The notes beneath the pieces were generated by a model. The model was not told the origin of the DNA and made no database searches. It saw only the letters and a program-made list of their open reading frames with translations. 64,000 nucleotides of DNA, from assembly GCA_918797485.1 (NCBI GenBank), contig CAKKNE010000001.1:1302001-1366000 (forward strand), in the 5' to 3' direction. Positions 8,300 to 46,532 of the stretch are shown here, in pieces (within the stretch, counting starts at the first letter, position 1; each line of letters opens with the position of its first letter). Position numbers and translations under genes: made by a program. This stretch comes from Pelagomonas calceolata (lineage: Eukaryota).

Positions 8300-11200
8300 A
8301 TGGCCGACCAGTCCAACGCCCGCCACAAGCCGCGGAAAGATGGATTAGCACAATCAACAAAAAAGGCCGCGGACCGCTTCCGCGCTGGCGGCCAGCAAAG
8401 CGGGAAGCACAAGACGCGAGCCTTTGGCGTCGCGAATCTGGGACGGTCGAAGCGCTCTTTACAGAGAAACGCGGATCGGTCCCACCGGAAAGAAGTAGCG
8501 GCGACCATACGGAGAGATAGTGGCGTCGCACCTACAGTGATAGTCGTTTGTGGACCGCGAGGATCGGGAAAAACCACACTCATCAAGTCTTTAGTAAAAC
8601 TACACACGCGCCACTCGTTAAAGACGTGTGCCGGACCGATCACGATCATCTCCGGGAAAGATAAGCGGTTGACGTTAATTGAGTGTCCGGACGACGCGTG
8701 CGCTCTGATTGACTTGTGCAAAGTAGCCGATCTAGTTTTACTCACAGTGGACGCGTCGTTCGGCTTCGAGATGGTGACGTTCGAAGCGTTGGCCTGTCTG
8801 CAAGCGCACGGGTTCCCGAAGGTCGTCGGTGTTCTGACGCACTTGGACAAAATGAAAACGAATAAGGCCCTGCAACAAGTAAAAAAAGCTCTCAAGCACC
8901 GCTTCTGGCAGGATGTGTATGATGGGGCCAAAGTTTTTTACATCGGCGGCATCCTGCAGAGCGGCAAGTACCCTAGGAACGAGATGAGGCAACTCGCTCT
9001 GTATGTGAATCGCGTCAAGTACCGCCCTTTAGCTTGGAGGAATGCCCACGGCTATGTGGTTGTCGATCGCGTCGATGACGCGACACCTGGTAGTCGTATC
9101 AGAGCTGATGCTGATTGCTCGAGACGAGCGGACTGCTACGGCTATGTGCGGGGGGCTAGACTCAAACCCGGCGGTAGCGTCCATGTGCCGGGTCTGGGCG
9201 ACTTCTCGCCGGAGTCCATAGAAGTACTCGATGACCCCCTACCGTTAATATCAAAAACCTCGACTCTCGAAAAAAGTGACAGTGTCATCTACGCGCCGTT
9301 GTCCGACGTCGGCGGCGTGGCCTATGACGACGACGCGGTCTACATCGACCTGAAGACCGTCGCCTATTCCAAAGAAGAGGACTTGGACGGTGAAGGCCGC
9401 AGGGCCGTGACGGGCGGCGCCGCGGACCTGGTGCGACGGCTGCAGCAGCCCGGTTCGGTAGATGCGAAGCTGGAGAAGTCGGAATTACGACTGTTCGGCG
9501 GTTCACGAGCGGTGCGCGGGAGTACTGTGGAAGAGGACTCGGCCGAAGACTCCTCGGATTCGGATAGCGACGAGTCGTCGTCTAGCGAGGAGGAGGACGC
9601 GGCCCGGGCGTCCTTCTTCGAGGAGTCGAGACTGTCGCTGGAGAAGCGCAAGGCGGCACGGGAGGCGGGAGACCTCGGGGCGCGCGTTTATGGGTATGAA
9701 GAGGAGGAGGAGGATGATGATGATGAGGACGACGAGGGCGACTTGTTTCGGAGGCGAGGGGACGGCCCGGCCTACAAGGAGCGGAAGGTGGCGGCGGAGG
9801 GTTTGGACGCCTCGGACGACGACGATGTGGCCGTCGCGTTCGATGACGACGACGTACTGGAGGGCGCGCAACACTGCTTCGCGACGGTGGACGACGACGA
9901 GGCCTACGGCGACTTTGAAAATCTAGACGAGTCCGACGACGACTCTTCTGATGGTGAAGACGAGGCCGCTCCTGCTGATAATGAAGAAGCACCCTTAGAA
10001 GGTAGGGAGGCGATCGCCGCCGCGAAGGCCCGGGCCATGGCGCAGAAGGCCGAGGAGGAAGAAGACGACGACGACTTCGCGGCCGACGCGCGGCAGGCCT
10101 TGCGGGATCGGGCCGCGAAGACCGATAGCGTGTTTGCGGACGATGAGGAGAGAGTAGCGTTGGAGGGCCATCGAGCGGGGTTGTACGTGAGAGTGCGACT
10201 CGAGGACGTCCCTCGGAGTTTCTTCGACGAGCGCGATCCGGCAAGGCCCATCATCCTCGGTGGGTTATTACCACACGAGTGCACGCCGCCCAGTCTACTC
10301 ACGGCGAGAGTCCGGCGCCACCGCTGGCACGGTCGTATACTGAAAGCGCGGGATCCCGTCGTGTTCAGCTGCGGCTGGCGGCGCTTCCAGTCGGCGCCGC
10401 TCTACTCGCTGGAAGATGAAAGGCAAACGCGACAACGCTTCCTCAAGTACACGCCGGAGCACATGCACTGCGGCGCCCATTTCCGAGGTTATGGCGTCGC
10501 GCCGAACACGCCATTACTTGGGTTTCATTCCCTCAAGAGTGATTGCGCCACTTTCAGAGTTTGTTTAGTTGGTGTGGTGGTCAAGCAGGAGACTCTCAGT
10601 CCGGTCGTGAAGAAGCTCAAGTTGTGTGGAGCCCCGTACCGAGTCGAGAAGAATACAGCCTTCATAGATGGGATGTTCACCTCGGCCCTGGAGGCCGCCA
10701 AGTTCGAGGGCGCCCAGATAAAAACTGTTTCCGGGATTCGCGGGTCGATCAAGAAGGCCATCCGCGAGGACGCTTCTCAAGCCGCGAGGCGTGCTGGTGC
10801 TCCGTCGGGCAAGGCCGGGGCTTTTCGAGCCACGTTCGAGGACAAGTTATTATTGTCAGATGTGGTCGTCTGTCGGTTGTGGGTGCCCGTGGAGCCGCCG
10901 CCTCTCTGTTTACCTGTTGCTAACTTACTGGAAGCAGTGTCGGGAGATACTCTGTTAGCAAGATCCGTGGCCGATGTCAGAAGAGCAACAGAAACACCCA
11001 TTCCAGTATCAAAAGATTCTTTATATAAGGGTCCCATCGCGCGCGCTCCCCGGAAGTTCGCGCCCCAAAAGCTGCCGAAGAAACTCGTGGACCAGTTACC
11101 GTTCGCGTCGCGACCGAAGGAAGACGCGCCTCGTGGGAAGCGCGACGGCTACCTGAAGCAGCGCGAGGACGCGTCGACCGGTTTGGCGCCTCGAGAGTCG

Positions 11201-11434
11201 ACTGAAACCAGAAGGACGCGGAAATTAGTGCATCAGCTCGAGACCGTGCGCGCCGAGAAAAAAAGAATCAAGGGTGCGGCGAAGGAGAAGAAGAAGGGCG
11301 AGCGGGCCAAGGAGCTCGCGAAGATCGACGCTTCCAGGCGCGCATCCTCAAAACTGAAGAACAAGGCCGCGCATAGGGCGCACGGCCGCGACCAAGCTAG
11401 AAAGCGGGCGAAGTTCACGAGTGGCGACGAGTAA
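8300..11434 (+). CDS. BMS1: Ribosome biogenesis GTPase BMS1
   Basis: GPRGSGKTTLIKSLVK, ADLVLLTVDASFGFEM, GVLTHLD, GWRRFQS, KYTPEHMHC and KFEGAQIKTVSGIRGSIKKA. Confidence 0.96.
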   Translation: MADQSNARHKPRKDGLAQSTKKAADRFRAGGQQSGKHKTRAFGVANLGRSKRSLQRNADRSHRKEVAATIRRDSGVAPTVIVVCGPRGSGKTTLIKSLVKLHTRHSLKTCAGPITIISGKDKRLTLIECPDDACALIDLCKVADLVLLTVDASFGFEMVTFEALACLQAHGFPKVVGVLTHLDKMKTNKALQQVKKALKHRFWQDVYDGAKVFYIGGILQSGKYPRNEMRQLALYVNRVKYRPLAWRNAHGYVVVDRVDDATPGSRIRADADCSRRADCYGYVRGARLKPGGSVHVPGLGDFSPESIEVLDDPLPLISKTSTLEKSDSVIYAPLSDVGGVAYDDDAVYIDLKTVAYSKEEDLDGEGRRAVTGGAADLVRRLQQPGSVDAKLEKSELRLFGGSRAVRGSTVEEDSAEDSSDSDSDESSSSEEEDAARASFFEESRLSLEKRKAAREAGDLGARVYGYEEEEEDDDDEDDEGDLFRRRGDGPAYKERKVAAEGLDASDDDDVAVAFDDDDVLEGAQHCFATVDDDEAYGDFENLDESDDDSSDGEDEAAPADNEEAPLEGREAIAAAKARAMAQKAEEEEDDDDFAADARQALRDRAAKTDSVFADDEERVALEGHRAGLYVRVRLEDVPRSFFDERDPARPIILGGLLPHECTPPSLLTARVRRHRWHGRILKARDPVVFSCGWRRFQSAPLYSLEDERQTRQRFLKYTPEHMHCGAHFRGYGVAPNTPLLGFHSLKSDCATFRVCLVGVVVKQETLSPVVKKLKLCGAPYRVEKNTAFIDGMFTSALEAAKFEGAQIKTVSGIRGSIKKAIREDASQAARRAGAPSGKAGAFRATFEDKLLLSDVVVCRLWVPVEPPPLCLPVANLLEAVSGDTLLARSVADVRRATETPIPVSKDSLYKGPIARAPRKFAPQKLPKKLVDQLPFASRPKEDAPRGKRDGYLKQREDASTGLAPRESTETRRTRKLVHQLETVRAEKKRIKGAAKEKKKGERAKELAKIDASRRASSKLKNKAAHRAHGRDQARKRAKFTSGDE

Positions 11435-11640
11435 AGGGGAGTAGTGTGTCAAGATCCGATTGGAAGAGTCGCTTGTTGCGCGCGCATCTGCGAGACAAAA
11501 CCCGACGTACTTCGTGAGATCATGCATGTCATCATGAGATCAATTCGCCTGCCACGGGGAGCCCGCTTGGCCGGGCAGCCCGCTTGACATCCCCGTGGAC
11601 GGGGCAGGAGTCAGCACGCTGTGCCGCCTCGGCCTGCAAC

Positions 11641-13002
11641 ATGCTCCTGCCCCTCCTGCTGCTCGCGGGGGCGGCCCGCACCGCCGCGCAGACGACAGAA
11701 GGGGGCTGCACGTGCCAGGAGGCATGCACGACGGCCAATCACCACCGGGAGTGGTGCAAAACAATAAATGCGTGCGGCACATATAGTTTGTGGGGCTACT
11801 ACTGGGACAATTGCGCGACGACGCCGACGCCGGGCGAGTCGACGAAGGGCGGCTGCACGTGCAAGAGCAGTTACACCTGGAACTGGAAAACGTATGACGG
11901 CTGCACGACCGACGACCACTACGCGAGCTGGTGCGCCGTCCAATCGCCGTGCTGCCCCTTTTTTGGGACGGTCGGCTGCTGGGACGAGTGCGGGACTGAG
12001 GGCGAGCCCTACGTGGTGCTGGAGTGGCCGGAATGGGGCGAAGACGACCCGTGCGAAGAAAAGCTGGACGCGTGGTGGGAGTGCATGCAGGACGAATGCG
12101 GCACGACCGAGGCCTCGGAGATGGGGGACACGCTCGGCGGGTTGCTGGGCGCGTGGCTACCCGGACGGACCAAATTCGGAAAACTGTGCAGCTTACTCTG
12201 TACCTTTTTAGGTTCGTGCGGGTGCCAGCAGGTCCTCGGGCAGATCGGCTCTGAAATATTCGGCATGCTGGGCCAGCTCGTCTTCGGCGGCGTCTCATTC
12301 CTGGCGAACTGCGGCGACATCCTCGCGGATTCCAAGGCGGCGAATGCCCAGGCGGATAGCATCCAGGGCAAGTCCTGCGAGGAGATCGGGGCCTCGAACG
12401 GCTTCGCGAGCGAGTGTGTCAACCTCCCCTACAACCGGGACATCTGCGTCGCCGAGTACCGCAGATACATCGAGTGCAAGTACGAGGACCAAGCGGAGCA
12501 GCAGAACCTGCTGAAGGACTGCCAGCTGACCTGCCCGACCGAAATCATCAACGCCGCGCCGACGCCGGCGCCGCGGTGGCCGACGCCGACGCCGACGTCC
12601 TCGGGGGTTGGCGCCGATGCGTCGGCGGGACTCATCGCGGGCGTCGTCGTGGGTGTCGCCGCGCTCGCCGCGATCGCCTTCGGGGCGTACTGGTTCATGC
12701 GCGCCAAGGGCGGCGCGGAGCCCGCGGAGCCCCCGATGATAGAGGTGGAAGAGATGGCACCGGGCCCGGTCCCGCGCAAGGATCAACTCTACGCCGCCGC
12801 CGTCCCAGTCGCTTCGGCGCCGCCGACCATGCCGCCGCCGCCGCCAGAGCCGGCTCAGGAGCGCCCCTCCATGCTGTCGAGGCTGGCGTCCTGGCGGGCG
12901 CCGGCTGCTGAGGCGCCGACCGGGCGCAACTTGTTCTGCACTGCGTGCGGCGCCCCGGTCCAGGGCCCGTTCTGTACGCAGTGCGGCGCCCGCGTGCAGT
13001 AA
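11641..13002 (+). CDS. Cys-rich type I membrane protein (FN2-like modules, TM helix, C-terminal zinc ribbon)
   Basis: Signal peptide MLLPLLLLAGAA; GCTCKSSYTWNWKTYDGCTTDDHYASWC resembles fibronectin type II; TM segment AGLIAGVVVGVAALAAIAFGAYWF; tail CTACG...FCTQCG. Confidence 0.75.
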   Translation: MLLPLLLLAGAARTAAQTTEGGCTCQEACTTANHHREWCKTINACGTYSLWGYYWDNCATTPTPGESTKGGCTCKSSYTWNWKTYDGCTTDDHYASWCAVQSPCCPFFGTVGCWDECGTEGEPYVVLEWPEWGEDDPCEEKLDAWWECMQDECGTTEASEMGDTLGGLLGAWLPGRTKFGKLCSLLCTFLGSCGCQQVLGQIGSEIFGMLGQLVFGGVSFLANCGDILADSKAANAQADSIQGKSCEEIGASNGFASECVNLPYNRDICVAEYRRYIECKYEDQAEQQNLLKDCQLTCPTEIINAAPTPAPRWPTPTPTSSGVGADASAGLIAGVVVGVAALAAIAFGAYWFMRAKGGAEPAEPPMIEVEEMAPGPVPRKDQLYAAAVPVASAPPTMPPPPPEPAQERPSMLSRLASWRAPAAEAPTGRNLFCTACGAPVQGPFCTQCGARVQ

Positions 13003-21106: not shown

Positions 21107-21165
21107 AAAGCGCTGGACGCGGTACCGCGGAACGCAAACGACGACATTTACTACAAACCAGAAGC

Positions 21166-23354
21166 TTACGCCGCCTCGAGCGCCCCCCGGTACCCCTCGA
21201 GCGCCACCTTCGCCAGGTACCGCGCGTTCGCCGCGACCCAGTGCTTGTCCTCCTCCAGCATCGCCCGCATGTGCGGCTCTAGATTCCAGATCTGTGTGAA
21301 GCTCAAAACCTCCTTGGTCTGCGTCTCGGCGTCGTTCGCGAGTTTATTGCCGACGGCGACGTAGGCCGCGACCAATCTTTTGGCGGCGTCCGCATTGCCG
21401 GAATCTAAGGCGCAGGCCTCCCGCGCGCGTTTGAGCGCCAGGACGGCGTCTCCATCATGATCCGCCGCGTCACCGAGCAACCGGAGCGAATACATGCGTT
21501 GCCTTGCGTCCTCCAAGGTTTCTGTTCGGTTCAACCGTTCCTCGAACTCCACGTCCCGGTCCGCCTTCTTGCCCTGCAGGCCGAGAACCGCCCCGACGTG
21601 CCCGAGCGCGGCGAGCGCCTCCGCGTCGGCTTGGGGCTCTGTATCCTTGGAAATGGCCAGTTCGCAGACCTCCAGCGCACTTTGCAGCTCCTGTTCCGTC
21701 GTCGCGCCGGCGCTGCCGTAGAGTCCCATCCCGGTGCCCTTCCGCCGACACGCCCCGAGCCCCACCCTACTGGACCTTCGTTCCGTGCGCAGGAAATCCG
21801 CACGCGACCGGTCACCTAACACTGAAACACCATACTCGTCGGGGAGCGGCTTCTCGAGCTCCTTCACCGCGTCGAGGGCCGCCTGGTAGGCGTCGGACGC
21901 GCCGGTCGCGTCGCCGCCGATGGCTTTTGCTTTCGCTTGTGCCGTGGATAAAGCGTGGGTGAGGACCGCGGCCGTCGTCGTGGGCTCCTTGGCTTGTGCT
22001 GCGACGGCGTAGCGCCGCGCCGCGTCTATCGACCTTTCAACCAATTCGAGCTCCGAGTCATCAAGCCGCCGCTGGCTCAGCGCCAGCTGCACAAAAGCAC
22101 CTAGCAGCGCGTCCTCGGCGCCTGTGTTGAAATCAAATTTACGGCACCTTCGCTATCGTCGCGTCGACCTCCACGCCGTCGACGCGGCACCTGCTCGATG
22201 GCGTGGCGATGTCGGTTCCCCACCGCTCGACGGAGCCAGCGCGGCCACGTCATCGCCGAGAAATGACTTAGTGAAGAATATATCGGGTGCACCCGACGCA
22301 CTGGTTGATTTCCACACAGCTCGGCACGCCCGGGCCACGGCTCGTCCGGCGGCGGCAAGAGGGACGCGGCGCGCTCGAGCCGCGACCGCGCGCCGACATC
22401 CAGGGAAGGCGCCTGCGTCGCCCGGGCCGCGTGGTACAATGCTCTGGCTTGCACCGTTGCAGGAGAAGCGCCTCGAAACAGCCCGTCCGCGTCCTCCGGT
22501 ACGACCGTACTCTCGTCCAACAATTTGGCGCAGCCATCAAATTCTTGCCGCGCGGGCCGGAACTTGCCCAGCCTGCACAGACAGACGGCGCAGTTGTGCT
22601 TCGCTCGTAAGATTATAAGTGGATGTGCGTCCTCCTTGCGCACCAACGCATCTGATAATTCTAAATCTTTTTGATGACAGACTAACGCCTTCTGCACATC
22701 GCCCTTCCGAAAGTGGATAACGCCCGCCAACGACGCGTTCCTCGCTTGTTGCGTGGGCGCGTCTTTCAGCAGGCCGTCGGACTTCTCCAACGCCTCCAGC
22801 GCTTCATTATCTTTCCCTAGCATCGCATACACGTGGGCCAGATTGGCATATGACGAGGCCTGGCCCTCCTTGCGTATGCCTTTGTCCTTTTCCTCGGTCG
22901 CACTCGACCTGTGTGGAAATCAAATTTACGGCGCGTTCGTCCTGAATCGCCGCGTCGACCTCGACGCCATCGACGCGACGCCTGCTCGATGGCGTGCGAT
23001 GTCGGTTCCTAACCGCTCGACGGAGCCAGCGCGGCCACGTCATCGCCGTGCACCCGACGTGCCGGTTGATTTCCACACAGCACTCGACAATTGCTTCTCG
23101 AAGGTTCCTAACGCACCAGGGACGTCGCGCAGCTCGAGCTGGCACTGTCCGATCTTGGCACAGAGTCTTGACATGACCATGTGCTCCTCATACGTCTCCA
23201 GCGCCTCCGCGGCCGCCTCGAGTTTTGCCAGCGCTGGAGCCCAGTCGCGTTCCTCGACGAGCGCAGTACCATCATCGATGAGCTCGTCGACGTCGCCGCG
23301 GCTCAGCTTTACCTTCTCCGGCTCCGGCTCAGTTTTTTTCTTCTTGGGCGCCAT
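21166..23354 (-). CDS. TPR-repeat protein; 3 exons, ~600 aa
   Basis: Exons 23354-23089, 22908-22328 and 22121-21166 total 1803 nt in one open frame. TPR-like helices include SYANLAHVYAMLGKDNEALEALEK and GDVQKALVCHQKDLEL. Confidence 0.85.
22122..22327 (-). mobile_element. Introner intron B (206 bp)
   Basis: TIRs CTGTGTTGAAATCAA (from 22122) and TTGATTTCCACACAG (to 22319). TSD CTCGGCGC (22114-22121) / CTCGGCAC (22320-22327). Splicing restores the frame. Confidence 0.92.
22909..23088 (-). mobile_element. Introner intron A (180 bp)
   Basis: Perfect 15-bp TIRs CTGTGTGGAAATCAA / TTGATTTCCACACAG spanning 22909-23080. Perfect 8-bp TSD CACTCGAC at 22901-22908 and 23081-23088. Confidence 0.95.
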
Positions 23355-43692: not shown

Positions 43693-43926
43693 CCATCATA
43701 GACGCGCGACGTAAAAATCGCGTAGACGGCGTACCGCGTGCTGTTGGAGCAACGCATTGCTCCTCCAGGTACCACACTTAACGTTCAAACCAGTGCTTGG
43801 GCGCGTCGCGTCGCACCACAGGAATTTGTGAACCCCAGCCTGCAGGCTGCTACAGTAGGACTGCGGCGCAAGGCGGCGGGCGAAGCATTACCTGTGTCGG
43901 TGCGAGACATTGACGGCGTCGGTGCG

Positions 43927-44340
43927 ATGAATGCACTCGCCGACTATGGTAGCTCCTCGGACGACGACGACGGCAGTGGCGACGAAGCGATGCCGCCCGC
44001 GCCTGCGCCTGCACCCGCGCCAGCGCTGCCATCAGCCGCAGCGCTGCTGAACGGGCCCGCACGACCGCCGACCGAGGCGGCTCTGCCATCGGCCGCCGCC
44101 CTGCTGAACGGCCCAGCGCGACCGCCGACCGAGGACATCAGGCCGCGCCTCGGCCCCGCGCGACCGCCCGCCGACAATCGGCCGGCGAAGCGGAAGCGGG
44201 GCGGCGCGAGCGGCGGCCTCATGGCGCCGCCGCAGATGCGCCGGCCGAACGTGTCCACGGAGGCCGTGGGGTCGTGGTCGTCGAAGGCCACGACCAAGAA
44301 GTTCCAGTCGAAGGAGCGGGAGAAGCTAAGTAGAAGGTAG
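43927..44340 (+). CDS. Proline-rich hypothetical protein (PRCC-like termini)
   Basis: N-terminal MNALADYGSSSDDD, internal 19-aa duplication, LMAPPQMRRPNVSTE. Confidence 0.6.
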   Translation: MNALADYGSSSDDDDGSGDEAMPPAPAPAPAPALPSAAALLNGPARPPTEAALPSAAALLNGPARPPTEDIRPRLGPARPPADNRPAKRKRGGASGGLMAPPQMRRPNVSTEAVGSWSSKATTKKFQSKEREKLSRR

Positions 44341-44361: not shown

Positions 44362-44856
44362 CTAGAACGGCGTCACCGCGTCCATGATGTCCTCGAGGGT
44401 GATCTCGACCTTCCGCTTGTCCGCCATCTTGGCGGCCACGACCTCCTCGACGGACATGGCCGGGTCCTGGCGCGCGCCCCACTCGCGGAGCGTCAGGTAC
44501 CTGTGTAAGTACCGTCAAGCCTTCCCCAACCATCTCACATTTAGTGACCGATACGTGATTCGAACACGTAACCTTCAGGACTGGAATCTGACGCGCTACC
44601 GTTGCGCCAATCGGTCGAAGTAAGGCAAATGAAGGTGGAAGGGGACGCGGCCGCGGTACGGGTCGACGGGGCCCTTCTCGCCGCCGGGCTTGCGCGGCCG
44701 GCTCTTGCCGTTGCTGCCGGCGTAGACCTTGCCCTTCTTCGTGCGCTTGTCGTTGCGGCCCGCGACGACGGTGAGCGGCGCCGACGTCGGCTGCGGCGCG
44801 ACGAAGGCCTCCGCATACCCCACGAGGGCAATGAGGGCTAATACCACGCGACGCAT
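44362..44856 (-). CDS. PSRP4: Plastid-targeted 30S ribosomal protein bTHX/PSRP4; 2 exons, 111 aa
   Basis: Signal peptide followed by AEA-FVAP plastid motif; THX core GRNDKRTKKGKVYAGSNGKSRPRK. Exons 44856-44660 and 44500-44362 join across GT-AG intron 44659-44501 (GPVDP-YLTLREW...TPF*). Confidence 0.85.
44545..44616 (-). tRNA. trnW-CCA: tRNA-Trp (CCA), intronless, 72 nt, nested in a protein-gene intron
   Basis: GACCGAT TGGCGCAACGGTAGCGC G TCAGA TTCCAGT CCTGA AGGTT ACGTGTTCGAATCACGT ATCGGTC A: 7-bp acceptor stem, A and B boxes, CCA anticodon. The last pair of the anticodon stem is an A-C mismatch. Confidence 0.93.
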
Positions 44857-45215: not shown

Positions 45216-46532
45216 ATGGCGACCTTTGGCGACGTCAAAATCAAGTTAGAAGAGCAGCCGGAGAGCGAGGGCGACACCGAGGACACCGAGGACGACGACG
45301 ACGGCATGATCAAGGGTAGATGTTATGTGCCTCCCGGTTGTCCGAACAAAGAACAAAATAACTTTGGAGATGAGTTCGAGAGCCACTTCGTCGTGCCGCA
45401 CCGGCTCGGGAACCAGCCGGGGGAATTGGTGGAAGCTGTCAACGACTTTCATTATGCGATGATCAACGATCGGCCGAGGAACGAGTTCTATCGCGAGTGT
45501 TTAAGGAGGGCGATCGTGCCCGGTCAATCTATAGTGCTGGAGATCGGCACGGGTAGCGGGTTACTGGCCATGCTCGCGGCTCGGTTGGGCGCCAAAAGAG
45601 TCGTCGCCATCGAGGCGTCGCCGCACATGGCCGCGCTCGCGCGTAGGAACATCAATGCTAACAATCTAGACGGCACGATCACGATCCTCGAGGCCTTGTC
45701 GACGGAACTCGACGCCGACGACATCCGCAAGGCCCTGGGCGTCAGCACGCGCCGCGAGGTGTCCATCTCGGCGCAGACGTCTTCTGATTCGAAACCGTTC
45801 ACGTCCGACCTGCCGGACGTCCTCGTCTCGGAGCTGTTCGGCACGCTGCTGCTGGGCGAATCCGCTCTGGAATACTTGAAAGACGCGCGGGAACGGCTCG
45901 TGCGGCCCCAATGCCGCATCGTGCCGCCGCGAGGAAGACAACTGGCAGCTCTGGTCGAGTGCCCGGCCATCGCGGAGCTGTCGCGGGCGAACGATTTTGA
46001 AGGGCTGGACCTCGGCCACGTGAACGTCCTCCAGGACACGGCGTCCTTGGTCTTCGCGAAGCAGTACGGGTTCCGTTTTGGGGATGTGCCTTCGCGGTTC
46101 CTCGCGCCGACGATCGAGGTTTTGTCTTGTGATTTCGCGCGGGACGCGCCGGGCGACTGGAAGGCCGAGATGGAGCACCTGGTCACGTGTTCCGAGGCCG
46201 GTACGGCCCACTGCGTCGTGCTCTTCTGGGAGGCTAGTCAGGGCGGCCCCGGGACGCCATCATGGGAGGGTGCCGACACGCTCATGATGTCCACAGACCC
46301 GCGGGCGACGCGATCTAATTTCGCTCGAGATATGCAGTGGGGCCAAGGAATTCAATTGCTGGAGGATTTGGACGCCGAGGCTTTGGATGCCGTGCGGAAC
46401 CCGGGCGGTATATCTACTCGACCACCAACACCTCTAGTGGTTAAGGCGGGCGAGCAGTTGCGGGCGGCCGTGCGGCTGTCGTCGGATAGCGTCGTGCTGC
46501 AGTTCGGCGTGCGGCGGGCTGCTGGCGCGTGA
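45216..46532 (+). CDS. Protein arginine N-methyltransferase, PRMT7/9-like single module
   Basis: HYAMINDRPRNEFY, VLEIGTGSGLLAMLAARLGA, double-E loop DVLVSELFGTLLLGE, and MQWGQ. Confidence 0.85.
   Translation: MATFGDVKIKLEEQPESEGDTEDTEDDDDGMIKGRCYVPPGCPNKEQNNFGDEFESHFVVPHRLGNQPGELVEAVNDFHYAMINDRPRNEFYRECLRRAIVPGQSIVLEIGTGSGLLAMLAARLGAKRVVAIEASPHMAALARRNINANNLDGTITILEALSTELDADDIRKALGVSTRREVSISAQTSSDSKPFTSDLPDVLVSELFGTLLLGESALEYLKDARERLVRPQCRIVPPRGRQLAALVECPAIAELSRANDFEGLDLGHVNVLQDTASLVFAKQYGFRFGDVPSRFLAPTIEVLSCDFARDAPGDWKAEMEHLVTCSEAGTAHCVVLFWEASQGGPGTPSWEGADTLMMSTDPRATRSNFARDMQWGQGIQLLEDLDAEALDAVRNPGGISTRPPTPLVVKAGEQLRAAVRLSSDSVVLQFGVRRAAGA

What the first reader, a model, noticed from the sequence alone, without database searches (positions are those of the whole stretch)
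44501..44659. tRNA-Trp nested in sense orientation inside a spliceosomal intron of the plastid ribosomal protein bTHX/PSRP4 gene, with no Pol III terminator
Seen: a complete cloverleaf tRNA-Trp(CCA) at 44616-44545 fills the middle of a 159-bp GT-AG intron, and removing that intron extends the THX frame by a GC3-rich exon. The tRNA 3' trailer (CTAAATGTGAGATGGTTGGGGAAGGCTTGACGGTACTTACACAG) has no T-run. The first T4+ on that strand that I can find is ~830 bp downstream (43717-43713). Known: nuclear tRNA genes normally end in an oligo-dT Pol III terminator, and intron-hosted processing is typical of snoRNAs rather than tRNAs. Inference: this tRNA may be cut from the Pol II pre-mRNA or lariat by RNase P/Z, tying tRNA supply to a translation gene, or tRNA processing may compete with host splicing.
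Basis: partly seen in the sequence, partly recalled or inferred. Interest (0 to 1): 0.85.

Follow-up and report, generated by a model that had tools for sequence, protein, structure and literature searches.

The report
tRNA-carrying hairpin introns in Pelagomonas
A tryptophan tRNA gene lies inside a normally spliced intron of a chloroplast ribosomal-protein gene of the ocean alga Pelagomonas, and it is one of dozens of look-alike tRNA-carrying hairpin introns that lack the usual tRNA stop signal, so these tRNAs are likely made from the host genes' own transcripts.

Summary
Every observation checks out. tRNA-Trp(CCA) lies at 44545-44616 (-), scoring 61.8 bits in Rfam. It sits in sense inside a 159-nt GT-AG intron (44501-44659) of the plastid-targeted THX gene of Pelagomonas calceolata. 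The splice is seen in RNA reads of three runs, in one culture RNA contig and in one seawater metatranscriptome contig. The first T4+ on that strand is 827 nt downstream.

The locus is not a one-off. A scan of marine metagenomes with a 31-nt tRNA core gave 76 loci, holding about 33 genomic contexts. Most show the same unit:
- a 17-nt 5' motif, GTACCGCGGCGGCGTCC, that starts at the splice donor;
- a variable leader, the tRNA (or a tight tRNA cluster), and a variable trailer complementary to the leader;
- CGGTAC-ACCCACAG at the acceptor.

The whole intron folds as a long hairpin with the tRNA at its tip. Pfam domains of L24e and uL2 continue residue for residue across the predicted junctions; zf-CW, L7Ae and a nucleoside-transporter domain fit them.

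Only 4 of 99 distinct tRNA downstream contexts have T4 within 50 nt.

The best reading is an introner-like intron family with tRNA cargo. The tRNA is likely matured from Pol II host transcripts, but this is untested; autonomous Pol III transcription remains a strong rival.

I found no paper describing this. Earlier notes of this scan report tRNA-built introns in Perkinsus, on other DNA.

The parts
44660..44856 (-). THX/PSRP4 exon 1 (start codon at 44856). It encodes a signal peptide, an AEA|F motif and the Thx domain; the intron falls after the second base of a codon.
   Evidence: Translation. Pfam PF17070 Thx E 1.4e-5, 25.4 bits, below the 29.7 cut-off. 100% identical to P0002. RNA depth 70-99 in X21.
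44501..44659 (-). 159-nt GT-AG spliceosomal intron. It folds as a long hairpin with the tRNA at the apex and the last 8 nt unpaired.
   Evidence: Skipped in RNA reads and contigs. MFE -55 kcal/mol, z -2.51, 0 of 200 shuffles as stable. The fold with the cloverleaf enforced has the same shape.
44643..44659 (-). 17-nt 5' family motif GTACCGCGGCCGCGTCC, which begins with the splice donor GT.
   Evidence: It is the only match with 2 or fewer mismatches in the 64-kb window. In the 76 loci, 57 of 59 motif instances precede a tRNA within 60 nt.
44617..44642 (-). Variable leader, predicted to pair with the trailer.
   Evidence: Folds. Test of own against swapped leader/trailer pairs. Unalignable between orthologues.
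44545..44616 (-). tRNA-Trp(CCA), cytosolic type, 72 nt including the discriminator A.
   Evidence: ARAGORN. Rfam 61.8 bits. Identical body in 27 of 76 family instances.
44501..44544 (-). Trailer without a T-run. It holds TTGAC (branch-point-like, inferred), CGGTAC, which pairs with the 5' GTACCG, and the acceptor TTACACAG.
   Evidence: Sequence. 3' motif match with 3 mismatches. CGGTAC or TGGTAC present in 28 of 29 elements.
44362..44500 (-). THX exon 2: a 45-residue C-terminal extension plus the stop codon (44362-44364).
   Evidence: Translation. Present in P0002 and in the relatives P0027 and P0046. 100% conserved in L017, L026, L029 and L054 and 98% in L064.
43713..43717 (-). First T4+ (T5) run on the tRNA strand, 827 nt downstream. 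It lies beyond the host's poly(A) region, inside the convergent gene.
   Evidence: Script. Minus-strand RNA depth falls to 0 below about 44310.

Best explanation
The tRNA-Trp sits inside an efficiently spliced 159-nt intron of the plastid THX gene and is one copy of a family of tRNA-carrying hairpin introns of Pelagomonas; the tRNA is likely cut out of the host's Pol II transcript or of the excised intron by RNase P and RNase Z rather than made as a terminator-bounded Pol III unit.

Shown:
- The tRNA and the splice.
- The family architecture: a 17-nt donor motif, leader, tRNA or tRNA cluster, a trailer complementary to the leader, then CGGTAC plus ACCCACAG.
- Its presence at about 33 genomic contexts, in coding regions and apparently in 5'UTRs.
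- The near-absence of oligo-T after these tRNAs.

Inferred:
- The unit spreads as an intron (it is introner-like).
- The hairpin brings the splice sites together or marks the RNA for processing.
- The mature tRNA derives from Pol II transcription.
For: (1) tRNA and splice.

(2) Family. The 31-nt core found 76 metagenome loci. 29 distinct Trp elements carry both end motifs, with lengths 120-165 and a median of 148. 57 of 59 instances of the 5' motif are followed by a tRNA within 60 nt: 40 Trp, 11 Arg-TCG, 5 Ala-TGC and 1 Arg-TCT. In the window the motif occurs only at this intron.

(3) These are real introns elsewhere. Pfam profiles run on across the predicted junctions:
- Ribosomal_L24e 7-28 | 29-65 in L063, a 232-nt intron with Arg-TCT and Trp.
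- Ribosomal_L2_C 2-23 | 25-118 in L071, a 231-nt intron with Trp and Sec.
- zf-CW from profile position 12 at residue 1 in L068.
- L7Ae from profile position 32 in L050.
- Nucleoside_tran 10-89 | 138-308 in L067.

(4) Hairpin. All 29 elements fold with the 5' end paired to CGGTAC and the tRNA at the tip. GTACCG with CGGTAC or TGGTAC occurs in 28 of 29. A leader pairs with its own trailer better than with another element's: -12.0 against -9.8 kcal/mol, permutation p 1e-4.

(5) No Pol III stop. Of 99 distinct tRNA downstream contexts, 3 have T4 within 15 nt and 4 within 50 nt. 74 of the 90 with enough sequence have none in 200 nt. The background is 2.9% and 8.9%. Several Arg-TCG copies even carry T5 in the leader.

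(6) Tight same-strand clusters with spacers of 1-17 nt (Trp-Sec, Leu-Trp, Arg-Trp, Ala-Arg, Gly-Trp) lie inside single introns.

(7) The tRNA is under constraint. In 25 orthologous pairs the tRNA is 99% identical and the exon flanks 94-95%, but the leader only 58% and the trailer 64%. The two main body variants differ by a compensatory pair, 51:61. 69 of 76 bodies keep the cloverleaf.

(8) Hosts include THX, uL2, L24e-type and L7Ae-type genes. This recalls snoRNA host genes; the comparison is my own knowledge.

(9) PolyA RNA holds sense reads that run from the tRNA into the intron leader and donor motif of other family loci. So Pol II transcripts carrying unprocessed tRNAs exist.
Against: - No datum here shows which polymerase makes the tRNA. 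Only polyA libraries were laid, and they cannot show mature tRNA or Pol III precursors.
- No read pile-ups begin or end at the tRNA borders (table 6).
- In every eukaryote studied, nuclear tRNAs are Pol III products (my own knowledge; the one exception I recall is trypanosome tRNA-Sec).
- The A-box-like and B-box-like parts of this tRNA are intact (by eye against recalled consensus), so Pol III could use it.
- A few units do carry T-runs just after a tRNA: T6 after tRNA-Sec in L018 and L071, and T5 six nt after Arg-CCT in L011, L030 and L053.
- The loci were picked by a Trp core, come from metagenomes of several strains, and are not a genome census. No whole genome was available.
- No target-site duplication was found, so a transposon origin like that of published introners is not shown.
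- The THX copy is one of many, so its own contribution to the tRNA-Trp supply may be small.
Confidence: 0.5

Rival explanations
1. Ordinary Pol III genes in a safe harbour. The tRNAs would be transcribed by Pol III from their internal A and B boxes, independently of the host. Transcription would end at distant or non-canonical sites, and RNase Z would trim the long trailer. The intron context would only reflect where a mobile tRNA unit can insert without harm.
For: Universal precedent (my own knowledge). In C. elegans 44% of 609 tRNA genes are intronic and 56% of those lie in the host's orientation (PMC4999229, passages read). The cloverleaf and the box regions are intact. T6 follows tRNA-Sec and T5 follows Arg-CCT in some units. 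The conserved GC-rich motif 7-26 nt upstream of the first tRNA lies where an upstream promoter element could sit.
Against: 95 of 99 distinct downstream contexts lack T4 within 50 nt, which is at or below background. The T6 after tRNA-Sec is absent in the orthologous L057. T5 stands inside the leader of Arg-TCG units. The motif-to-tRNA spacing varies from 7 to 26 nt, and the motif starts exactly at the splice donor and pairs with the 3' end, which fits an intron part better than a promoter.
Confidence: 0.35
2. Selfish introner with a tRNA-shaped module. Most copies would be passengers that add little to translation. The tRNA fold and long stem would serve the element itself, for example by stabilising the excised intron for reverse splicing or by aiding splicing. 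The cell's tRNA-Trp would come from a few dedicated genes.
For: Trp is served by one codon, yet the tRNA body is strongly multi-copy in one strain and occupies about 33 contexts. Copy borders coincide with the splice sites and show no target-site duplication, as reverse splicing would give. 7 of 76 bodies carry extra mismatches. Published work reports 956 putative introner elements with terminal inverted repeats in this species (PMC9481584, Supplementary Note 3, passages read).
Against: The tRNA is 99% conserved where the leader and trailer have diverged to 58-64%. Changes in it are compensatory. Other isotypes (Arg, Ala, Leu, Sec, Val, Gly) ride in the same kind of intron, some as the only visible copies. 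Giant-virus contigs carry the same tRNA-Trp at 70 of 72 identity, which points to a working host tRNA sequence. The search required an exact 31-nt core, so decayed copies could not be seen; this cuts both ways.
Confidence: 0.12
3. A chance or dead tRNA-like sequence (pseudogene) in an ordinary old intron, with no wider meaning.
For: One non-standard pair, A31:C39. No terminator.
Against: The A31:C39 pair lies within the 31-nt core that the search required, so all 76 family bodies share it; the giant-virus copies that match the same core carry it too. The tRNA is kept in five environmental THX orthologues while the surrounding intron sequence is scrambled.
Confidence: 0.02

Closest known systems
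Introner elements (Micromonas, Aureococcus, Pelagomonas; 956 putative elements reported for P. calceolata)
   Same: Many look-alike short introns lie at unrelated sites. They have inverted-repeat ends and carry their own splice signals, and this species is already known to have such elements (PMC9481584 main text and Supplementary Note 3, passages; review PMC11282704, passages).
   Different: The cargo is a complete, conserved tRNA or tRNA cluster. No target-site duplication is seen. The inner stem is variable but self-complementary. The word tRNA does not occur in the genome paper's main text or in its supplementary file 2, and the review mentions no tRNA cargo. I could not see the published element logos, which are figures, so I cannot say whether these introns were counted among the 956. 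Huff et al. 2016 is not held.
Intronic tRNA genes of animals (C. elegans sup-7 and others)
   Same: [quoted passage not shown] The host promoter influences expression, and the host-tRNA pairing is conserved between species (PMC4999229, passages).
   Different: There the orientation is near random (56% sense), the tRNAs are taken to be Pol III products, and the introns have no shared ends or hairpin. Here the tRNA and the intron form one conserved unit without a terminator.
Classical Pol III-type RNAs made from Pol II introns: the Arabidopsis GUT15 tRNA-like RNA, insect RNase P RNA, intronic snoRNAs
   Same: A structured small RNA lies in sense inside a Pol II intron and is released by processing. 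Hosts are often translation-related (GUT15: PMC6152437, abstract; RNase P RNA: PMC6797745, search listing only; snoRNAs: my own knowledge).
   Different: Those are single loci or non-tRNA RNAs. GUT15 gives a tRNA-like RNA, not a decoding tRNA, and it inhibits splicing of its intron. Here bona fide tRNAs of several isotypes are involved and splicing is efficient.
tRNA-derived SINEs
   Same: A tRNA-related sequence is amplified to many dispersed copies.
   Different: There is no A-rich or LINE-like tail and no target-site duplication. The copies begin 29-43 nt upstream of the tRNA at a splice donor and end at an acceptor, and the tRNA part is an intact tRNA rather than a decayed head. The SINE features are recalled.
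Non-conventional introns of euglenids
   Same: The intron ends are brought together by base pairing a few nt inside both borders (PMC11282704, passages).
   Different: Those have non-canonical borders and no tRNA. These are GT-AG introns.

Membership tests
Nuclear cytosolic-type tRNA gene (tRNA-Trp) | Cloverleaf with a CCA anticodon that scores above the family threshold | tested here: met
   ARAGORN. Rfam RF00005 61.8 bits against a gathering score of 29, full length.
Nuclear cytosolic-type tRNA gene (tRNA-Trp) | Oligo-T Pol III terminator shortly after the 3' end | tested here: not met
   The first T4+ is 827 nt downstream. Family-wide, 4 of 99 contexts have T4 within 50 nt.
Nuclear cytosolic-type tRNA gene (tRNA-Trp) | A mature, aminoacylated tRNA is produced from this locus | not testable with these tools
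   Only polyA RNA runs could be laid. All tRNA-body reads carry the flanks of other loci.
Spliceosomal GT-AG intron | Removed from the mRNA at GT..AG borders, restoring the reading frame | tested here: met
   Junction reads and contigs. 111-codon frame. Identical to protein P0002.
Introner elements (mobile, intron-generating repeats) | Many similar copies that are introns at unrelated sites | tested here: met
   29 distinct elements with both end motifs and about 33 contexts. Pfam continuity across junctions in four further genes.
Introner elements (mobile, intron-generating repeats) | Terminal inverted repeats | tested here: met
   GTACCG at the 5' end with CGGTAC or TGGTAC 8 nt before the 3' end in 28 of 29 elements.
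Introner elements (mobile, intron-generating repeats) | Target-site duplication at the borders | tested here: not met
   Of 25 elements only the window copy has a 5 of 5 repeat; most have 3 of 5 or fewer. The THX orthologues have GTGCC against GTACC.
Introner elements (mobile, intron-generating repeats) | Presence/absence polymorphism or recent insertions | not tested
A tRNA-less extra intron is present only in L026.
bTHX / PSRP4 (host gene) | Thx domain | tested here: inconclusive
   PF17070 E 1.4e-5 but 25.4 bits, below the 29.7 cut-off. Close relatives carry a precomputed PF17070 hit.
tRNA-derived SINE | tRNA-related head, a tail (A-rich or LINE-derived) and a target-site duplication | tested here: not met
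   Flanks were inspected. No duplication. The tRNA is intact.
Intron-hosted small RNA made from a Pol II host (snoRNA-like mode) | Sense orientation in a spliced intron and no transcription signals of its own | tested here: inconclusive
   Sense orientation, splicing and the lack of a terminator are met. However, a tRNA always carries potential internal Pol III promoter boxes.
Intron-hosted small RNA made from a Pol II host (snoRNA-like mode) | Release from the pre-mRNA or the excised intron | not testable with these tools
   This needs small-RNA or lariat data and polymerase inhibition.

The most novel reading that the evidence does not exclude
Pelagomonas has moved a large part of its nuclear tRNA production into a dedicated class of mobile hairpin introns. 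tRNAs of many isotypes are transcribed by Pol II as cargo of host-gene introns, often in ribosomal-protein genes, and are freed after splicing by RNase P and RNase Z. The same tRNA-intron unit copies itself to new sites and so creates new introns.
Probability: 0.3. Interest if true: 0.95.

Novelty: new variant of a known kind. Interest (0 to 1): 0.8.

Why it matters
Two textbook rules meet here: nuclear tRNAs are Pol III genes that end in oligo-T, and introns are non-coding spacers.

A family in which tRNA and intron form one conserved, hairpin-shaped, terminator-less unit offers a natural test of whether a eukaryote can make decoding tRNAs through Pol II and the spliceosome. The family is spread over dozens of genes, including ribosomal-protein genes.

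It also bears on how new introns arise, because a structured RNA cargo may help an intron to spread.

Pelagomonas is one of the most abundant picoeukaryotes of the open ocean and has a chromosome-scale genome and cultures, so the decisive experiments are feasible.

It has a practical side too. Gene callers on metagenomes translate straight through these introns: 7 of the 10 THX relatives that I fetched do so.

Tried and rejected
- Whole-genome census: no genome is held for this window.
- Huff et al. 2016 could not be read, so the published Aureococcus introner ends were not compared.
- Testing exon continuity by open-frame span was not discriminating in this GC-rich DNA, because antisense frames are open as well. 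It was replaced by Pfam continuity.
- Two scripts with faulty motif or acceptor patterns gave wrong borders and were discarded. A GC3 filter was too strict.
- Target-site duplication: the 5-nt GTACC repeat at this intron is not a family feature and is not kept in the orthologues.
- A tRNA-less 'empty' hairpin intron at window 21113-21193 (minus) joins two long frames. I rejected it because relatives down to 61% identity all end with the same C-terminus, read straight through that sequence.
- The 17-nt motif as a general intron signal: no other match with 2 or fewer mismatches in the 64-kb window, and only 1 of 59 instances in the loci has no tRNA nearby.
- Plastid origin of the AT-rich loci: rejected, because they are IMG/VR viral contigs, one of them named as a giant-virus MAG.
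- Read ends at the tRNA borders: none were listed. PolyA libraries are the wrong material, so this says nothing either way.
- Literature searches for tRNA-bearing introners or intron-derived tRNAs in algae found nothing that describes this. bioRxiv supplements and most subscription journals were not searchable.
Full report
**1. The observation**

The window has 63.2% G+C. By protein identity it belongs to Pelagomonas calceolata: the spliced product equals P0002, an NCBI 'unnamed protein product [Pelagomonas calceolata]' of 111 aa.

ARAGORN finds a single tRNA in the 64 kb, tRNA-Trp(CCA) at 44544-44616 on the minus strand. Rfam's tRNA model matches 44545-44616 end to end at 61.8 bits (gathering score 29, E 2.6e-12), with one non-standard pair, A31:C39.

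The surrounding frame starts at 44856. It encodes a signal peptide with an AEA|F junction, which I recall as typical of stramenopile plastid targeting, followed by a Thx-like stretch. The Pfam hit to PF17070 has E 1.4e-5 and 25.4 bits, just under the curated 29.7.

PolyA RNA reads of the same organism skip exactly 159 nt, GT..AG on the minus strand:
- 46+4 reads in X21 and 14 in X22.
- 45+4 in X21, 14 in X23 and 0 in X24, where the gene is hardly expressed.
- One RNA contig of X5 and one contig of a seawater metatranscriptome, X15, show the same joint. The DNA run X1 does not.

The spliced CDS has 111 codons plus a stop, with GC3 of 0.92 and 1.0. The exon-2 extension is kept in the relatives P0027 (74% identity) and P0046.

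The first T4+ on the tRNA strand is at 43717-43713, 827 nt downstream. The missing T-run is not an anomaly of composition: 21% of random positions in the window are as far from a T4. It does mean that no terminator has been selected here.

**2. Splicing is efficient and the tRNA is multi-copy**

In the fine-scale lay, the intron's unique leader (44620-44649) and trailer (44500-44539) have depth 0-1, against 54-88 in the exons (X21). In steady-state polyA RNA the tRNA therefore does not visibly hinder splicing. No 3' cleavage product (trailer plus exon 2) accumulates.

The tRNA body itself is covered about 790-fold in X21. All of those reads run on into flanks unlike the window. In the DNA run the summed word depth over the tRNA is 10,000-89,000, against about 510-550 in the flanks. 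Single 49-nt contigs reach 9,000-11,800. The tool warns that this is not a copy number, so I take it only as 'many copies'.

Some RNA reads hold two tRNA-Trp copies separated by 26 or 32 nt.

**3. A family of tRNA-bearing introns**

I scanned the metagenome collection with an unchanged 31-nt stretch of the tRNA and got 76 loci. ARAGORN finds 80 tRNA-Trp and 54 other tRNAs in them.

Five loci are THX orthologues with the tRNA in the same intron: L017, L026, L029, L054 and L064.

Most other tRNA-Trp copies lie at different places but in the same frame as the window copy:
- 5' GTACCGCGGC(G/C)GCGTCC;
- a variable leader that often ends in CCTTC;
- the tRNA;
- a variable trailer;
- (C)GACGGTAC-ACCCACAG, followed by G.

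Twenty-nine distinct elements carry both end motifs. Their lengths are 120-165 nt with a median of 148, and 26 of 29 end in ACCCACAG. The acceptor of L026 was set 2 nt short by my pattern.

In 141.6 kb of loci there are 59 matches to the 17-nt motif with 2 or fewer mismatches:
- 57 are followed within 60 nt by a tRNA (40 Trp, 11 Arg-TCG, 5 Ala-TGC, 1 Arg-TCT);
- one is followed at 225 nt;
- one weak match has no tRNA.

In the window the motif occurs only at the THX intron. Clustering by outer flanks gives about 33 genomic contexts for 77 Pelagomonas-like instances. This is a rough figure, because shared neighbouring tRNAs merge some contexts.

The loci come from several strains or species. That they are Pelagomonas-like rests on three points:
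- their 63% G+C;
- the THX orthologues;
- the fact that flanks of the L018 and L063 types appear in the RNA reads of the cultured organism (loose ends, compared).

**4. They are real introns**

At five other loci, Pfam domains run on or fit across the predicted junctions:

| Locus | Family | Upstream exon (profile) | Downstream exon (profile) | Intron |
|---|---|---|---|---|
| L063 | Ribosomal_L24e | 7-28, ending at the last residue | 29-65, from residue 1 | 232 nt, Arg-TCT and Trp |
| L071 | Ribosomal_L2_C | 2-23 | 25-118 | 231 nt, Trp, one base, then tRNA-Sec |
| L068 | zf-CW | no hit | starts at position 12 at residue 1 | not recorded |
| L050 | L7Ae | not scanned | starts at position 32 | 194 nt, Gly and Trp |
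| L067 | Nucleoside_tran | 10-89 | 138-308 | 146 nt, Trp |

Rfam confirms the tRNA-Sec (RF01852, 62.5 bits in L018, the same Trp-Sec arrangement as L071).

Several elements lie just upstream of an ATG and look like 5'UTR introns: L013, L038, L048 and L075. This is by inspection only.

**5. Hairpin architecture**

The window intron folds at -55 kcal/mol (z -2.5; 0 of 200 shuffles as stable). The 5' GUACCGCGGCC pairs with the region ending in CGGUAC, the leader pairs with the trailer, the tRNA sits at the apex, and the last 8 nt are free.

With the cloverleaf enforced, all 29 elements give the same shape. GTACCG faces CGGTAC in 24 elements or TGGTAC in 4, which makes 28 of 29.

The variable parts are complementary within an element more than between elements. 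The mean duplex energy is -12.0 kcal/mol for a leader with its own trailer and -9.8 for swapped pairs, with a permutation p of 1e-4. The elements are related, so this is not a count of independent events.

**6. Fast-changing stems, frozen tRNA**

In the THX alignment the exons and the 3'UTR are 97-100% identical and the tRNA is 70-72 of 72. The leaders and trailers are unalignable, and the trailer length ranges from 9 to 44 nt.

Over 25 orthologous pairs in five host groups the mean identities are:

| Part | Identity |
|---|---|
| Exon flanks | 0.95 / 0.94 |
| 5' motif | 0.96 |
| tRNA | 0.99 |
| Leader | 0.58 |
| Trailer | 0.64 |

Among 76 tRNA bodies there are 13 variants. The two main ones, 27 each, differ by a compensatory change in pair 51:61. 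69 of 76 keep the cloverleaf apart from the constant A31:C39. The search demanded an exact 31-nt core, so decayed copies could not be found.

I have no tested explanation for why the stems turn over so fast. Instability of hairpin DNA or exchange between copies are guesses.

**7. Terminators**

Of 99 distinct downstream contexts of Pelagomonas-like tRNAs:
- 3 have T4 within 15 nt and 4 within 50 nt;
- 74 of the 90 with enough sequence have none within 200 nt;
- the background in the same loci is 2.9% within 15 nt and 8.9% within 50 nt.

The exceptions within 15 nt are T6 directly after tRNA-Sec in L018 and L071 (absent in the orthologous L057), T5 six nt after one Arg-CCT, and one Trp copy, L055; the fourth context within 50 nt is T5 41 nt after tRNA-Val in L018.

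tRNAs inside one intron are 1-17 nt apart.

**8. Mechanism**

What is shown is a conserved tRNA-in-hairpin-intron unit, spliced, widespread and without Pol III stop signals. How the tRNA is made is inferred.

I favour maturation from the host's Pol II transcript or the excised intron by RNase P and RNase Z (confidence about 0.5), for these reasons:
- the terminator is missing across the whole family;
- the tRNA and the splice signals form one unit;
- clusters share one intron;
- some leaders contain T5;
- hosts are often ribosomal-protein genes.

Against this stand the universal Pol III precedent, the intact box regions, the few T-runs and the complete lack of direct data.

The main rival (0.35) is autonomous Pol III transcription with read-through and RNase Z trimming. 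A third reading (0.12) is that most copies are passengers of a selfish intron. It is compatible with either route.

That the copy borders equal the splice sites, with no target-site duplication, fits spread by reverse splicing better than the cut-and-paste model published for introners. No insertion polymorphism was examined.

**9. Comparison with what is known**

- Intronic tRNA genes are common in C. elegans: 44% of 609 genes, 56% of those in sense, with a host promoter effect on sup-7 (PMC4999229, passages). Nesting alone is therefore not new.
- P. calceolata is reported to have 0.45 introns per gene and 956 putative introner elements with inverted-repeat ends. 'tRNA' does not occur in that paper's main text or in its supplementary notes (PMC9481584). 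The figures with the logos could not be read.
- A 2024 review of transposon-derived introns mentions no tRNA cargo (PMC11282704, passages).
- RNAs of Pol III type made from Pol II introns are known as single cases: the Arabidopsis GUT15 tRNA-like RNA (PMC6152437, abstract) and insect RNase P RNA (PMC6797745, search listing only).
- Eight searches found no description of tRNA-bearing introners.
- Earlier AI notes of this scan report short introns built from tRNA genes or tRNA halves in Perkinsus (e1-7243405 and e1-9739232). I did not check them. They suggest the theme may be wider.

**10. Verdict**

The thing is a member of a previously undescribed, tRNA-carrying variant of introner-like introns. 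The open and testable question is which polymerase feeds these tRNAs.

Noticed in passing
L028, L037, L045, L049, L061 (metagenome) and L077-L081 (IMG/VR viral contigs): AT-rich contigs (about 30% G+C, up to 73.5 kb, one named as a giant-virus MAG) have an HSP70 gene next to a tRNA-Trp. That tRNA is 70 of 72 identical to the Pelagomonas nuclear tRNA-Trp and differs by one compensatory acceptor pair (3:70). Here a T-run follows at +2 or +41. This looks like a host-derived tRNA in a giant virus and may link that virus to pelagophyte hosts.
   Followed up: partly
L026, about 1275-1360 (THX exon 1 region): One environmental THX orthologue has an extra 86-nt intron (GTACCGAC...GACGCAG) without a tRNA. 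It is absent from the window and from L017, L029 and L054, so this is an intron presence/absence difference between close relatives.
   Followed up: no
L018, L071, L057: tRNA-Trp and tRNA-Sec (Rfam RF01852, 62.5 bits) are separated by a single base inside an intron of the uL2 (RPL8-type) gene. T6 follows tRNA-Sec in L018 and L071 but not in L057. Reads with this leader are the largest share of tRNA-bearing reads in the polyA libraries.
   Followed up: partly
L063 and L014: An L24e-type gene carries two consecutive tRNA-bearing introns, one with Arg-TCT, Trp and Trp, and one with Arg-TCT and Trp. L053 holds ten tRNAs on one strand within 1.5 kb, apparently spread over several short introns.
   Followed up: partly
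window 44617-44642 and 44501-44544; orthologous loci: Leaders and trailers of orthologous tRNA introns are almost unalignable, although the exons and the 3'UTR are 97-100% identical. This turnover is far faster than at neighbouring silent sites and is unexplained.
   Followed up: partly
window 44598 (also 44556, 44566, 44600): Apparent RNA-DNA differences in the reads (A>G in 38% of reads at 44598) are differences between tRNA-Trp paralogues, not editing. The same variants occur in the DNA run and in the metagenome copies.
   Followed up: yes
window 43738-44340 (+) and 45216-46532 (+): A convergent plus-strand gene (200-aa frame, no Pfam hit) ends about 20 nt from the THX stop codon and is expressed. 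Upstream of THX, a divergent PrmA-like methyltransferase gene starts about 360 nt from the THX start codon.
   Followed up: no
window 21113-21193 (-): An 81-nt stretch with GTACCG...CGGTAC...AG ends would join two long frames if spliced. It is coding sequence at the conserved C-terminus of the upstream gene, so it is a false lead.
   Followed up: yes
proteins P0004, P0005, P0006, P0013, P0016, P0019, P0021: Public metagenome gene calls for THX relatives read straight through the intron and translate the tRNA in all three frames. This produces spurious C-termini in protein databases.
   Followed up: yes
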